Positions 9,541 through 51,140 of a stretch of DNA of 64,000 nt are shown piece after piece; position 1 is the first letter of the stretch; the number at the start of each line of letters is the position of its first letter. The stretch is from positions 78,862 through 142,861 of the IMG/VR virus record IMGVR_UViG_3300028840_005764. One strand, given 5' to 3'. A program made the position numbers and the translations under genes. Below the pieces are notes generated by a model. The model was given only the letters and a program-made list of their open reading frames with translations, ran no database searches and was not told the DNA's origin. The stretch comes from a virus.

Positions 9541-9674
9541 TCGGGAGAGGTGGAATCGAACCACCGACCTGGGAGCTCCATATGCTGAAGTGGCGTCTTA
9601 GTTCCATGTGTGAGGCACGAGCGTTAGTTTAGACGTCACTTACATCCCCGCTCTACCACTGAGCTATCTCCCGA
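9541..9674 (-). ncRNA. tRNA-Pro-like RNA with ~60 nt structured insertion in the anticodon arm
   Basis: intact acceptor (C1:G72, A73), D and T arms; insertion hairpin AAGTGACGTCT/AGACGCCACTT. Confidence 0.75.
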
Positions 9675-9676
9675 AA

Positions 9677-9819
9677 GGTGGACGGGCTAGGATTCGAACC
9701 TAGAAAAACTATGCTGAAACAACTTCTGAGTTCTCAATCGTATTGAGTGATGAAAGAAATTGTTGTTGCTTGCGTTGCTAGCTCTATAGGCTAGTGCCTT
9801 ACCATTTGGCTACCCGTCC
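9677..9819 (-). ncRNA. tRNA-Tyr-like RNA (ATA anticodon) with ~70 nt structured variable region
   Basis: acceptor GGACGGG/CCCGTCC, CTAGC-CTATAGA-GCTAG, T arm CTAGG-TTCGAAT-CCTAG. Confidence 0.75.
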
Positions 9820-48635: not shown

Positions 48636-49049
48636 ATGTCAGAGATCTGCACCTACGTTGAGTTCTACTTTTCCGGTATGCTCTTTCCTGAAGTATCACG
48701 TCAGGAGATGGATTCTGATGACTACCGTGAAGTGCGGCAAGACATGCCAGGAAGGTCATATGCCTTTGCATTCAACAGAATTGAAACGATCACCGTTGAA
48801 TTCTCAAATGGAGTCAGACGAAAAATTACGCAAAGTCTTGGAAGAAGTCCTATTTATTATCCGGATGGAAAGGTTTTTAGCATTGCAGAGATTAAAGAAC
48901 AAAAACCTGATTCGGTGTTGTATAGAAATATGTGTGTGAATGATTGGGATGCAGTCGTTTGCACAAAGCAAGGTAATTACCAGCATTTAGAAGAAGGTGA
49001 TGTAGTTTTTGGTGAGAATTATAGCTTCACGTATAAGAGACGAAAATGA
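48636..49049 (+). CDS. hypothetical protein
   Basis: GAGG RBS after promoter. Confidence 0.55.
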   Translation: MSEICTYVEFYFSGMLFPEVSRQEMDSDDYREVRQDMPGRSYAFAFNRIETITVEFSNGVRRKITQSLGRSPIYYPDGKVFSIAEIKEQKPDSVLYRNMCVNDWDAVVCTKQGNYQHLEEGDVVFGENYSFTYKRRK

Positions 49050-49228
49050 GTTGGAAGAGCGGTACTGAATTATATGAAGCAATAATGGACGCTTTGCGTA
49101 AAACAGGATTGTCTCACGAGGCGTTTGCTGATGCTGGTTGGGATTGTGAATACGAATGCAGAAGAGTGGACCAAGCATACGATGAAGCTTTAGACGAATT
49201 GTATCCAGATATGGATTGGGGTGATTGA

Positions 49229-49302
49229 AGCGGGATGGCGCAGTTGGATAGCGCGCCGGACTCATGATCCGGTGGTCGGGGGTTCGAGTCCCCCTCCCGC
49301 AA
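49229..49302 (+). tRNA. tRNA-Met(CAT), initiator-like (1:72 mismatch)
   Basis: CCGGA-CTCATGA-TCCGG. Confidence 0.85.
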
Positions 49303-49305
49303 TAT

Positions 49306-49379
49306 GGACCGGTAGCTCAGTAAGGTAGAGCAGCTGACTTTTAATCAGCATGTCGTGGGTTCAACTCCCGCCCGGTTCA
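49306..49379 (+). tRNA. tRNA-Lys(TTT)
   Basis: GCTGA-CTTTTAA-TCAGC. Confidence 0.9.
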
Positions 49380-49445
49380 AAAAAACTTGTGAAGAAAAAT
49401 CAATGCTGCGGTATATAGGTAGCAGTGATAAAACGGAGGCAGAAG

Positions 49446-50198
49446 ATGGCAAAGATGCATGAATTGTTGGCAGTCGAATCGGATCTCGCCGGCAACTACA
49501 AGCGGGTGAGAGACGAGGGGATCAACACCCTCAGCAAGAAACCAGATCACTTCTTCGGGCATCACAAATCGCTGTTGATGTTCGATGAGTCGCGCAAGAA
49601 CGAAGAAGCGAGTGCCGAGCAGCACAAAGAGATGACTACCACGGTCCACGATAAGATCGATTGGGTGAATGACTCGGCCATCAACTACTTCGACGCGCTT
49701 CTGCAGAAGGAATCCACGAATCAGACGGCGAAGGCCGATCTCGTGGTGGATGGCAAGACGATGGCGAAGGACGTGCCCGCGACGTTTCTTCTGGGTATGG
49801 AGACGAAGCTTCGTGAAGTTCGCCAGCTGTATGAAGCCGCGCCTACGTTGCCGCCGGGTGTGAAGTGGGAGCATGCGGAGCAGGATGGCCGCGGGGTGTG
49901 GCGCACAGCCAATCCCGAGGTCACGGAGAAGACGGAGAAAACTGTCGAGCACAAGATCATTGTGCCGGCCACAGACAAGCACCCAGCACAAGTTGAGAAG
50001 TGGACTGCGAACAAGGTCATCGGCCAATTCACTACGACCAAGGTCAGTGGTGCGTGGACCGTGGCGCAGAAGGCGGATTGCCTGGGGAGGATTGACAAAC
50101 TCTTGCGTGCAGTGAAGAAGGCTCGGCAGCGCGCGAACACCGTCGAGGTGGTTGAGCGTACCGTGGCCAAGGAACTCTTCGACTACATCTCGGGGTAA
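49446..50198 (+). CDS. coiled-coil protein (DUF7873-like), upstream of a large ncRNA
   Basis: MAKMHELLAVE, VPATFLL, ATDKHPAQV, AVKKARQRAN. Confidence 0.7.
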   Translation: MAKMHELLAVESDLAGNYKRVRDEGINTLSKKPDHFFGHHKSLLMFDESRKNEEASAEQHKEMTTTVHDKIDWVNDSAINYFDALLQKESTNQTAKADLVVDGKTMAKDVPATFLLGMETKLREVRQLYEAAPTLPPGVKWEHAEQDGRGVWRTANPEVTEKTEKTVEHKIIVPATDKHPAQVEKWTANKVIGQFTTTKVSGAWTVAQKADCLGRIDKLLRAVKKARQRANTVEVVERTVAKELFDYISG

Positions 50199-50199
50199 C

Positions 50200-50632
50200 C
50201 CGGGTGTAATACAAGGGCAGCTTTGTTGTGAGCGTCAGTCTCAGCTTCCAAGACAAGAATGCGGCCGTGGTTGTTGCCACGGTTAGACGCTTGTCGACAT
50301 CAGCGTATTGCCCACCAGCACGGCTGGTTCAGGACTCGAGAGATCGGTGCCGAGGTCAAAATTCCACCCTGGTCGTTGGTTCGATCCCAACCCTTGCCTC
50401 CAATGTCACGCGCGAGCGCCGAGGTGTTCGTGCTGTGGGTGCCATTCGTGGTGCCCACTTTTGGCAAGGTAACTCAGTGGCAGAGTCAGGGCCCAACAGC
50501 ATGAACCTAGGTACTCGAATCAGAACGAGGCAGGAGCGAAGCCAAACTAGAGTAAACGTGTTGGCCCAATATGGTAGGGCAGTGGCTCAACAAGCTACGG
50601 GTTCCGGGTTCGAGTCCCGGATACGTTGCCAA
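50200..50632 (+). ncRNA. large structured RNA with a permuted tRNA-like domain and a second T arm
   Basis: nested long-range pairings; T arm and CCA precede the 5' acceptor strand and D arm. Confidence 0.7.
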
Positions 50633-50648
50633 AAACTCTATTCACTTA

Positions 50649-50710
50649 GGTCGGACGTCGGAGGCGCGTGACTGGAGATGATCGCGTTTTCTGGCGTCCG
50701 GCCACCTTTT
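50649..50710 (+). terminator. long hairpin terminator
   Basis: GGTCGGACGTCGGAGGCGCG/CGCGTTTTCTGGCGTCCGGCC followed by ACCTTTT. Confidence 0.6.
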
Positions 50711-51140
50711 GGATGCCACAATGTCCAGATCAAGAAGAAATCGCCGCAATAAACAAAAGCAACCATCGACCCTCGACGAATCAGAACATCAGCCTACAGA
50801 TGAAGAGCTTGGTTATAAGACCAAGAATGTGCATCAAGTTTCAGTTCAATGTATACCATCATTGAATAAAGAGCAGGGTGTAGTTTATTTTGACGTTCGT
50901 GTTGAACCTGAGTTTCTACGTAGCGTGATTGGTCGTACACGCCACAGCGTGGCGTTAGTTGATTTGGAACGTCTTGGGAAAAAGCCAAACGAAATAGCTG
51001 CTGAGTTAGCCCAGCAAACTATGATTTTTCTCGAACGATACATAGGAAAGATGTCTGACAAGGTTAAAAAGGACAAAGCTAAGGTTATAGAAAAATATAG
51101 TATCAAAAAGATACGACGTCGTGTTCCAGAAGGAGAATAA
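50709..51140 (+). CDS. hypothetical protein
   Basis: ORF in operon. Confidence 0.5.
   Translation: MDATMSRSRRNRRNKQKQPSTLDESEHQPTDEELGYKTKNVHQVSVQCIPSLNKEQGVVYFDVRVEPEFLRSVIGRTRHSVALVDLERLGKKPNEIAAELAQQTMIFLERYIGKMSDKVKKDKAKVIEKYSIKKIRRRVPEGE

What the first reader, a model, noticed from the sequence alone, without database searches (positions are those of the whole stretch)
49446..50710. ~430 nt ncRNA with a circularly permuted, CCA-ended tRNA domain behind a coiled-coil gene
Seen: CCCTG (50367), T arm GTTGG-TTCGATC-CCAAC and CCTTGCC-TCCA (to 50402) come first, then two hairpins, then GGCAAGG (50463), a D arm and CAGGG. The 3' tRNA half therefore precedes the 5' half. Possible enclosing helices are 50342-58/50502-21, 50315-22/50557-64, 50307-17/50572-83 and 50301-08/50621-28. 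A second T arm lies at 50603-21 and a terminator hairpin follows. Known: YrlA RNAs and two-piece tmRNAs are permuted in this way. Inference: processing could release a two-piece RNA with a GGC/U73 (Cys/Gly-like) acceptor. The upstream 250 aa protein is the likely partner, making a second uncharacterised RNP.
Basis: partly seen in the sequence, partly recalled or inferred. Interest (0 to 1): 0.85.

Follow-up and report, generated by a model that had tools for sequence, protein, structure and literature searches.

The report
Phage tRNA-mimic RNA beside DUF7873 gene
Behind an uncharacterised phage gene (DUF7873) lies a real, conserved folded RNA of about 355 bases whose core is a transfer RNA turned back to front, of the Y-RNA (YrlA) type; this phage has no gene for Ro60, the usual partner of such RNAs, so it may belong to an undescribed RNA-protein system.

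Summary
At 50367-50491 the 3' half of a tRNA (T arm, 7-nt acceptor strand, U73, CCA) precedes the 5' half (acceptor strand, D arm). A 60-nt insert with two hairpins separates them.

A long helix encloses the module. In relatives this helix covaries, and so do the tRNA-like helices.

The ncRNA therefore spans about 50199-50554, roughly 355 nt rather than 430.

The same module follows DUF7873 genes widely:
- essentially all 49 related viral contigs;
- about 20 of 47 bacterial loci;
- 5 of 5 cultured phages checked, from Rhizobium, Ralstonia, Klebsiella, Vibrio and Gordonia.

It fits no Rfam family. YrlA (RF02553) scores 21 bits against a cut-off of 69. The YrlA Ro60-binding motif is absent, and this complete 142.9-kb phage encodes no Ro60. 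My core model nevertheless scores Ro60-adjacent YrlA arrays in related phages as highly, so this is a YrlA-like tRNA mimic in a different gene context.

NCCA is kept in 42 of 47 phage-type copies, which makes RNase P cleavage into two pieces plausible. In a subset the CCA is base-paired instead. Binding by DUF7873 (a predicted homodimer) is inferred only.

This scan has already noted the same gene-RNA pair on other DNA (173 notes, at least 111 genomes).

The parts
49229..49380 (+). tRNA-Met(CAT) and tRNA-Lys(TTT) directly upstream. Together with the downstream tRNA-Val they place the gene and RNA inside a tRNA cluster.
   Evidence: ARAGORN and Rfam.
49446..50198 (+). DUF7873 protein gene, 250 aa, with a GGAGG 8 nt before the ATG. 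Mixed helix and sheet, no solved relative, predicted homodimer.
   Evidence: Pfam PF25283, E 5e-73, 246 bits. AlphaFold2 model pLDDT 90.7. No Foldseek match; best VIA Z 9.0, generic helical bundles. Dimer score 0.76 against best control 0.00.
50199..50554 (+). Proposed extent of the structured ncRNA, from the stop codon to the 5' end of the next tRNA. The 5' end is not defined.
   Evidence: No sigma-70-like promoter in 49000-50900. A tRNA starts at 50555. Relatives have a tRNA about 50-85 nt after the D arm.
50219..50248 (+). AGC[GT]T words at 12-nt spacing (50219, 50231, 50243) with AGTCT between them. This is the weak local form of hexamer arrays seen in relatives.
   Evidence: Word enrichment over 66 loci: AGCTT 72 seen against 14.9 expected. 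Tandem Repeats Finder finds nothing in the window but a 12-nt period in L034.
50301..50322 (+). Conserved 5' motif CAGCGTATTGCCCACCAGCACG (family consensus about YAGCGTATTGNCCCNNCAGCTT), not predicted to pair.
   Evidence: Aligned in nearly all relatives.
50344..50356 (+). Rod helix H2, 5' strand. Pairs with 50505-50518.
   Evidence: RNAalifold. Rod pairs 87% paired against 61% in shuffles, 19 of 19 pairs with changes on both sides.
50367..50371 (+). 3' strand of the anticodon-stem analogue (CCCTG). Pairs with CAGGG 50487-91.
   Evidence: A stem of 3-7 bp with differing sequences is present in relatives.
50375..50391 (+). T arm, GTTGG-TTCGATC-CCAAC.
   Evidence: 99.6% paired; 4 of 5 pairs with changes on both sides.
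50392..50402 (+). Acceptor 3' strand CCTTGCC, discriminator U50399, encoded CCA 50400-02.
   Evidence: All 7 acceptor pairs covary. NCCA present in 42 of 47 phage-type copies.
50403..50462 (+). 60-nt insert closing the acceptor stem: AUGUCAC, hairpin 50410-33, U, hairpin 50435-58, UUUU. Insert length is 3-164 nt in relatives.
50463..50469 (+). Acceptor 5' strand GGCAAGG. The predicted RNase P site lies between U50462 and G50463.
   Evidence: The cleavage itself is inference from PMC4201824.
50472..50486 (+). D arm, ACTC-AGTGGCA-GAGT, with G18 G19.
50487..50491 (+). 5' strand of the anticodon-stem analogue (CAGGG). An internal loop follows (CCCAACAGCATGA) in place of an anticodon loop.
50505..50518 (+). 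Rod helix H2, 3' strand (T50515 bulged), running into ACTCGAATCAGAACGAGG, the local form of the family motif YACTCRAYGAAAG.
50555..50631 (+). tRNA-Val(AAC), a separate gene. Its 5' processing would set the 3' end of the ncRNA.
   Evidence: ARAGORN; Rfam 51.5 bits.
50649..50703 (+). Terminator-like hairpin followed by CACCUUUUGG.
   Evidence: Fold -35.8 kcal/mol, z -3.5.

Best explanation
The stretch encodes a structured non-coding RNA of about 355 nt (about 50199-50554). It is transcribed together with the flanking tRNAs and the DUF7873 gene.

Its head is a complete L-shaped tRNA mimic in circularly permuted order: T arm, 7-bp acceptor stem, D arm and all elbow residues. There is no anticodon loop. 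In its place the anticodon-stem analogue opens into a conserved internal loop and a long rod formed by the RNA's 5' and 3' flanks. This is the architecture of YrlA-type Y RNAs.

The RNA belongs to a large uncurated family that follows DUF7873 genes in phages of many hosts and in some bacteria. In this phage it works without a phage Ro60.

Most likely mechanism (inferred):
1. RNase P cuts 5' of tRNA-Val, which sets the 3' end.
2. RNase P also cuts between U50462 and G50463.
3. The 60-nt trailer is trimmed back to CCA50402. This leaves a two-piece RNA held together by the acceptor stem and the rod, with a tRNA-like CCA end.
4. The DUF7873 dimer binds the rod or repeat part, and the tRNA-like head docks onto tRNA-recognising enzymes. 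This could serve the phage's tRNA supply, for example as a decoy or adaptor.

Shown: the fold, its conservation and the gene linkage. Inferred: the processing, the protein binding and the function.
For: Module and fold.

Covariation:
- T, acceptor and D helices are 98.8% paired, with 264 cells changed on both sides against 63 in shuffles, 0 of 500 shuffles as high.
- With the anticodon stem added: 90.5% paired, 339 against 102.
- The rod H1+H2, on an alignment that was not selected for pairing: 87.2% against 60.7%, 19 of 19 pairs with changes on both sides, slid controls 38-46%.

Core model R1:
- It scores the window 58.6 bits and true modules 50-85 bits. tRNA-tRNA junctions in these loci reach at most 45 bits (some unexamined hits in a 358-kb relative reach 50-51 bits).
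- There is only one module in the whole phage.

Linkage to DUF7873:
- The module lies 125-550 nt (mostly 150-250) downstream of DUF7873 on the same strand. This holds in all viral loci L003-L051, one of them at 40 bits because of a 157-nt insert.
- It also holds in Rhizobium phage RHph_Y65.
- It was found in 4 of 4 further cultured phages that were not used to build the model.

No Ro60, RtcB or CCA-adding enzyme is encoded in the complete genome.

NCCA is present in 42 of 47 phage-type copies, although the acceptor stems are entirely different. A U stands at -1 in the window and in about 31 of 56 relatives.

Precedent: M. smegmatis YrlA, which has a 7-bp acceptor stem, is cut by RNase P and ends in CCA in vivo (PMC4201824).

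DUF7873 homodimer: score 0.76 against best control 0.00. That mark was reached by 20 of 30 proteins solved as pairs and by 1 of 23 solved as single chains. The runs agree in at least 96% of contacts, and the partner's pLDDT is at least 90. This supports a dimer but does not show one.
Against:
- The sequences were picked by a scanner that demanded pairing, so their percentage paired is partly built in.
- About 25 bacterial (Cytophagales-type) DUF7873 loci have no module within 1.5 kb.
- Modules of the same core also occur next to Ro60 and at loci with neither gene. The head is therefore not specific to DUF7873.
- In about 10 relatives the CC(A/U) pairs with (U/A)GG just 5' of the acceptor strand. 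CCU/AGG compensations occur in L056, L058, phiRSL1 and KpLz-2_45. There the end is probably a closed, extended stem. Five phage copies lack CCA altogether.
- The two stable hairpins in the window's trailer would hinder 3' trimming.
- The host may supply Ro60.
Confidence: 0.6

Rival explanations
1. It is an ordinary YrlA-type Y RNA that works with Ro60, supplied by the host. DUF7873 is only a neighbour or an accessory factor.
For: - The core model scores Ro60-adjacent arrays in a related jumbo phage at 58.7 and 70.1 bits, as high as the DUF7873-linked RNAs. One array unit shares its acceptor stem with that phage's DUF7873-linked RNA.
- 3 of 4 related viral contigs encode a TROVE protein.
- RF02553 gives a weak hit on the module: 21 bits here, 30-33 bits in relatives.
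Against: - The complete phage has no TROVE gene.
- RF02553 is far below its 69-bit cut-off, and only its tRNA-like part (model positions 19-90) matches.
- There is no GNCGAAN0-1G motif 5' of the T arm.
- In phages that have both genes, Ro60 has its own separate RNA array 5-200 kb away.
- A complete Bernardetia genome has DUF7873 and modules but no TROVE.
Confidence: 0.15
2. It is a cis-acting processing or stability element of the tRNA/DUF7873 transcript. The tRNA-like fold recruits RNase P to form the mRNA's 3' end, as mascRNA does for MALAT1. It has no role of its own in trans.
For: - There is no promoter-like site of its own.
- It always lies on the same strand directly behind the gene and in front of a tRNA.
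- It has RNase P-type features.
Against: - The 5' motif, internal loop and rod are conserved over about 200 nt and covary. That is far more than a cleavage signal needs.
- The same modules occur away from DUF7873 genes.
Confidence: 0.15
3. It is a phage two-piece tmRNA: a permuted ssrA gene whose RNA is charged and carries a tag reading frame.
For: - Permuted gene order with an encoded CCA.
- Some related phages infect Rhizobium, an alphaproteobacterium. Alphaproteobacteria have two-piece tmRNAs (established knowledge).
Against: - No copy has G3:U70.
- ARAGORN finds no tmRNA.
- It has a full D stem, unlike tmRNA.
- Only about 60 nt follow before the next tRNA.
- I saw no conserved reading frame or pseudoknots when reading the 3' flanks; this was not tested formally.
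Confidence: 0.03
4. It is a true permuted tRNA gene (Cyanidioschyzon type) that matures by circularisation or ligation into a working tRNA.
For: The 3' half precedes the 5' half, and every tRNA tertiary-contact residue is present.
Against: - There is no anticodon loop. The junction is a covarying rod with a conserved internal loop.
- No RtcB ligase is encoded in the phage.
- Bacteria lack the splicing endonuclease (established knowledge).
Confidence: 0.03

Closest known systems
YrlA (Y RNA-like A, Rfam RF02553) with Ro60/Rsr; Chen et al. 2014 (PMC4201824), Wang et al. 2018 (10.1101/312249)
   Same: - T-arm-first, circularly permuted tRNA-like domain with a D arm, T arm and acceptor stem.
- No anticodon loop.
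- The head is mounted on a long stem formed by the RNA's two ends.
- Found in phages with many tRNA genes.
- My core model scores Ro60-linked copies as highly as DUF7873-linked ones.
   Different: - 21 bits against a 69-bit gathering score.
- No GNCGAAN0-1G Ro60 motif.
- No Ro60 gene in the complete phage.
- Linked instead to DUF7873.
- Longer (about 355 nt), with a conserved 5' motif and AGCKT words.
- NCCA is encoded in most phage copies.
Mycobacterium smegmatis YrlA, the two-piece form (PMC4201824)
   Same: A 7-bp acceptor stem. That RNA is cut by RNase P in vitro and is found in vivo as a 5' piece ending in CCA and a 3' piece starting at the RNase P site. This is the processing proposed here.
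   Different: There the CA is added after cleavage; here CCA is encoded. That RNA is Ro60-bound. Processing has not been observed for the present RNA.
Two-piece (permuted) tmRNA of alphaproteobacteria and cyanobacteria
   Same: Permuted gene order, with an acceptor piece ending in an encoded CCA followed by an intervening segment that is removed.
   Different: - No G3:U70.
- No tag frame or pseudoknots seen.
- A full D arm.
- Not detected by ARAGORN.
Permuted tRNA genes of Cyanidioschyzon merolae
   Same: The 3' half lies upstream of the 5' half, with a spacer at the acceptor end.
   Different: Those mature into normal tRNAs with an anticodon loop. Here the anticodon side is a conserved rod.

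Membership tests
YrlA (Rfam RF02553) | Reaches the family's gathering score (69 bits) | tested here: not met
   21 bits at window 50363-50496, matching model positions 19-90 only. No hit in cmscan at E up to 10. Relatives score 30-33 bits.
YrlA (Rfam RF02553) | Permuted tRNA-like domain: T arm, acceptor-like stem, D arm | tested here: met
YrlA (Rfam RF02553) | GNCGAAN0-1G motif near the 5' end (proposed Ro60 contact; PMC4201824) | tested here: not met
   No CGAA occurs anywhere in 50199-50366. The only CGAA is 3' of the head (CTCGAAT, 50514-20) and lacks the flanking Gs.
YrlA (Rfam RF02553) | Encoded within about 4 kb of a Ro60 (TROVE) gene on the same strand | tested here: not met
   No TROVE match in the complete 142.9-kb genome at E up to 0.1.
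YrlA (Rfam RF02553) | Bound by Ro60/Rsr | not testable with these tools
   Needs immunoprecipitation. The host is unknown.
tmRNA (two-piece) | G3:U70 alanine identity pair in the acceptor stem | tested here: not met
   The window has C3-G70. None of the copies read has G3:U70.
tmRNA (two-piece) | Tag reading frame and pseudoknots; detection by ARAGORN | tested here: not met
   ARAGORN reports no tmRNA in the window or in L001. A tRNA gene starts 63 nt after the anticodon-stem analogue.
Canonical tRNA (RF00005) | Contiguous 5'-to-3' cloverleaf with a 7-nt anticodon loop | tested here: not met
   Neither ARAGORN nor Rfam calls a tRNA over 50364-50493. The order is permuted and the anticodon loop is replaced by the rod.
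DUF7873 (Pfam PF25283), the protein | Full-length match above the gathering score (27 bits) | tested here: met
   246.2 bits, residues 1-248 on profile positions 1-241 of 244.
DUF7873-linked permuted tRNA-mimic RNA (uncurated; defined here by model R1) | Core model score of 50 bits or more, on the same strand, 125-550 nt (mostly 150-250) downstream of a DUF7873 gene | tested here: met
   58.6 bits at 50364-50493. The model starts 166 nt, and the T arm 177 nt, after the stop codon. The window was itself one of the 56 sequences used to build the model.

The most novel reading that the evidence does not exclude
DUF7873 and this RNA form a Ro60-independent ribonucleoprotein carried in phage tRNA clusters.

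In this reading a DUF7873 dimer holds the rod or repeat domain. RNase P and 3' trimming open the acceptor loop, so the particle displays a genuine tRNA acceptor end with CCA but has no anticodon.

It would then act on the tRNA machinery during infection. It could be a decoy that soaks up host enzymes or toxins recognising the tRNA elbow and CCA end. It could also be an adaptor that brings a tRNA-processing or repair enzyme to damaged tRNAs.
Probability: 0.25. Interest if true: 0.85.

Novelty: new variant of a known kind. Interest (0 to 1): 0.66.

Why it matters
Y RNAs are known only as partners of Ro60, and what the tRNA-like head of YrlA binds is still unknown. Here the same kind of head sits on a different, well-conserved body. 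It travels with a different protein of no known fold, and DUF7873 alone numbers about 2,600 protein clusters at 50% identity. The pair is found in phages of very different hosts: Rhizobium, Vibrio, Klebsiella, Ralstonia, Gordonia, Prevotella megaphages and cyanophages. It usually lies inside their tRNA gene clusters.

If the pair is a working particle, it is a second, widespread class of tRNA-mimic RNP. It would probably bear on how large phages protect or manage tRNA during infection. Cultured phages that carry it make the question directly testable. At present these regions are left unannotated or covered by spurious small ORFs.

Tried and rejected
- **Rfam.** The whole window at gathering threshold and the locus at E up to 10 gave only tRNAs and chance-level hits.
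- **Ribozymes.** Nothing reached gathering score.
- **Structure search with the DUF7873 model.** Foldseek against the PDB found nothing at E up to 1e-3. VIA-align wide gave a best Z of 9.0 to designed or generic helical bundles, which is not informative.
- **Protein family libraries.** PHROGs, NCBIfam and PADLOC gave no meaningful hit.
- **Literature.** Searches for DUF7873 and for permuted tRNA in phages found nothing on this system.
- **Tandem repeats.** Tandem Repeats Finder found no array in the window's 5' region. The AGCKT repeat idea rests on relatives and on word counts.
- **Second module.** Earlier notes describe two-headed RNAs. The model finds none upstream in the window at E up to 0.1. 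Gordonia phage Phendrix does have a second module.
- **Unrelated neighbour.** The 239-aa ORF in front of three tandem modules in Bernardetia is not related to DUF7873 (hhalign probability 0.4).
- **Lost tool.** The script machine was lost. NCCA and -1 base counts after that point were made by hand.
Full report
**What is in the window**

The window is the last 64 kb of a complete 142.9-kb virus record with direct terminal repeats. It carries 27 tRNA genes.

The finding lies in a small tRNA cluster on the + strand:
- tRNA-Met and tRNA-Lys, 49229-49380
- a 250-aa gene, 49446-50198
- 356 nt with no credible ORF
- tRNA-Val(AAC), 50555-50631
- a strong hairpin followed by CACCUUUUGG, 50649-50703

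No sigma-70-like promoter lies between 49000 and 50900. The unit is therefore probably read from further upstream, as one transcript with the tRNAs.

**Check of the observation**

- CCCTG 50367-71
- T arm 50375-91
- acceptor 3' strand CCTTGCC 50392-98, U73, CCA 50400-02
- a 60-nt insert with two 10-bp hairpins capped by CGAG and UUCG
- acceptor 5' strand GGCAAGG 50463-69
- U8-like TA
- D arm with G18 G19, 50472-86
- CAGGG 50487-91

An unconstrained fold of 50199-50560 gives exactly this arrangement, enclosed by a long imperfect helix.

His three outer helices and his 'second T arm' fall inside tRNA-Val. That tRNA is called independently by ARAGORN and by Rfam at 51.5 bits. In relatives a real tRNA of varying anticodon follows at about the same distance. 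The RNA is therefore about 355 nt, bounded on its 3' side by a tRNA 5' end.

**The protein**

The upstream protein is a full-length member of Pfam DUF7873 (246 bits). Findings on it:
- It has no hit in PHROGs, NCBIfam or PADLOC.
- A confident AlphaFold2 model (pLDDT 90.7) shows four long helices packed against a sheet with a long beta-hairpin.
- Neither Foldseek nor VIA-align finds a convincing solved relative.
- A profile search finds about 2,600 clusters at 50% identity. The best 150 listed are single-domain proteins of 245-275 aa.
- A complex prediction supports a symmetric homodimer: score 0.76 against a best control of 0.00. The mark was reached by 20 of 30 proteins solved as pairs and by 1 of 23 solved as single chains. 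The runs agree in at least 96% of contacts, and pLDDT is at least 90. This supports a dimer but does not show one.

**Relatives of the RNA**

Taking the DNA downstream of DUF7873 homologues gave the same module again and again:
- the unannotated 455-nt gap of Rhizobium phage RHph_Y65;
- all 12 loci of a first viral scan;
- after widening with a protein alignment, essentially all 49 viral loci and about 20 of 47 loci from bacterial genome bins.

Covariation in the tRNA-like helices:
- The acceptor stems are all different yet complementary: 7 of 7 pairs have changes on both sides.
- The T, acceptor and D helices are 98.8% paired, with 264 doubly changed cells against 63 in shuffles.
- Adding the anticodon-stem analogue gives 90.5% paired and 339 cells against 102.
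- These sequences were chosen by a scanner that required pairing, so the percentages are partly built in. The compensatory changes and the constant position are not.

Covariation in the rod is a cleaner test, because it played no part in the selection. RNAalifold on a plain MAFFT alignment of 14 relatives predicts two further helices:
- H2: window 50344-56 with 50505-18
- H1: weak in the window

These are 87% paired against 61% in shuffles and 38-46% when the partner column is slid. All 19 pairs show changes on both sides.

**A core model and what it finds**

I built a covariance model of the core, R1 (89 positions, 21 pairs).
- It scores true modules 50-85 bits, and the window 58.6 bits.
- tRNA-tRNA junctions, its only false positives in these loci, reach at most 45 bits. 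Some hits I did not examine in a 358-kb relative reach 50-51 bits.
- It finds one module in the whole phage.
- It finds the module in four cultured phages that were not used to build it: Ralstonia phiRSL1, Klebsiella KpLz-2_45, Vibrio D505 and Gordonia Phendrix. In each it lies in an unannotated gap or under tiny ORFs, just after the DUF7873 gene.

**Anatomy beyond the head**

- After the 3-7-bp anticodon-stem analogue there is no anticodon loop. Instead there is an asymmetric internal loop: 3' side about AU-YAGANUGA, 5' side A-rich.
- The rod follows. In many relatives a motif YACTCRAYGAAAG lies on its 3' strand.
- About 55-75 nt before the T arm lies a conserved unpaired motif, about YAGCGTATTGNCCCNNCAGCTT. 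It is at 50301-22 in the window.
- Further upstream are AGC[GT]T words at 6- or 12-nt spacing. They form arrays of 4-7 in some relatives and only three copies here.
- The same word recurs in the internal loop. A repeated protein-binding word is a reasonable guess, but it is untested.

**Relation to known families**

Rfam does not hold this RNA. YrlA (RF02553) touches only the tRNA-like part, at 21 bits against a cut-off of 69. That is no better than its score for the neighbouring tRNA-Met/tRNA-Lys pair.

Two further YrlA criteria fail:
- The GNCGAAN0-1G motif that Chen et al. place near the 5' end of YrlA is absent.
- The complete phage has no TROVE/Ro60 gene.

The head, however, is clearly of the YrlA kind:
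- In a related 358-kb phage a TROVE gene is followed by an array of units that my core model scores 47-70 bits. These units have 7-bp acceptor stems and mostly NCCA.
- One unit has the same acceptor stem as that phage's DUF7873-linked RNA.
- In Cytophagales genomes, modules occur next to a second DUF7873 paralogue, next to TROVE, and at loci with neither. Other DUF7873 paralogues have no module nearby.

So the head is a shared building block. The DUF7873 linkage is near-universal in the phage-type clade but not across the whole protein family.

**The CCA end**

In favour of a processed, free CCA end:
- NCCA follows the acceptor strand in 42 of 47 phage-type copies, with every possible discriminator. 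It is usually followed by A or U and a short A/U-rich spacer.
- The base before G1 is U in the window and in about 31 of 56 relatives.
- With the 7-bp stem, these are the features of an RNase P substrate.
- M. smegmatis YrlA, which has such a stem, is cut by RNase P and carries CCA in vivo (10.1101/312249).
- The phage has no CCA-adding enzyme of its own.

Against it:
- Five phage copies and most Bacteroidota copies lack CCA.
- In about ten relatives CC(A/U) pairs with (U/A)GG just before the acceptor 5' strand, with CCU/AGG compensations. In those copies the stem is extended and probably closed.
- The window's trailer holds two stable hairpins that would resist trimming.
- The varying discriminator and acceptor pairs, and the lack of an anticodon, argue against charging by one particular synthetase. 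The GGC/U73 resemblance to tRNA-Cys/Gly is peculiar to this copy.

**Verdict**

The RNA is real, conserved and structured. It is a YrlA-like tRNA mimic with a different body and a different gene partner, and Rfam does not hold it. I found it in none of the papers I could search.

Two-piece processing is plausible for this copy, at about even odds. A DUF7873-RNA particle is a reasonable but untested inference, at about one in four for the full bold reading.

The same pair has been noted many times by this scan on other DNA. I reached the reading independently before seeing those notes and tested two of their leads:
- A ribozyme in the acceptor loop: none here or in 13 relatives.
- A second head: absent here, present in Gordonia phage Phendrix.

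Noticed in passing
window 9620-9819 (-): Rfam calls a 141-nt tRNA (55.2 bits) that ARAGORN misses. It reads as a tRNA with a roughly 70-nt insertion between the anticodon arm (loop CTATAGA) and the T arm. An orphan stretch resembling a tRNA 5' half follows it (acceptor strand, TA, GCTC-AGTGGTA-GAGC).
   Followed up: partly
window 50555-50631 (+): The tRNA after the ncRNA has anticodon AAC (Val) and C33 instead of U33 (loop UCAACAA). Both are unusual for bacterial tRNAs, and it encodes its own CCA.
   Followed up: no
window 50219-50248 and 50301-50322; L019, L020, L028, L034 upstream regions: AGC[GT]T words at 6- or 12-nt spacing lie in the 5' third of the RNA, in arrays of 4-7 in some relatives. 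The same word recurs in the internal loop below the tRNA-like head. It may be a repeated binding word for a protein.
   Followed up: partly
L110 1100-1960 (358-kb viral contig of L015): A TROVE/Ro60 gene is followed by an array of at least four YrlA-like units. Each starts with GCAGCAGCGUAG, has a 7-bp acceptor stem, and mostly has NCCA. One unit has the same acceptor stem (CCGTCCC/GGGACGG) as the DUF7873-linked RNA of the same phage.
   Followed up: partly
L116 456-1598 (-) (Bernardetia sp. chromosome): Three tandem permuted tRNA-like modules (63-66 bits) lie downstream of a 239-aa ORF. The ORF has no Pfam match and no similarity to DUF7873. This genome has no TROVE gene.
   Followed up: partly
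L114 1501-1594 (-), L115 1501-1588 (+): Single high-scoring modules (68-70 bits) in Cytophagales genomes lie beside housekeeping genes (nuoH; PrmA and a methyltransferase). No DUF7873 or TROVE gene lies within 1.5 kb.
   Followed up: no
L119 2284-2526 (Vibrio phage D505); L117 2299-2782; L118 2269-2964; L120 2236-2742: In deposited phage genomes the RNA region is either left unannotated or covered by tiny hypothetical ORFs (VPHD505_0061 and VPHD505_0060), which are probably spurious.
   Followed up: partly
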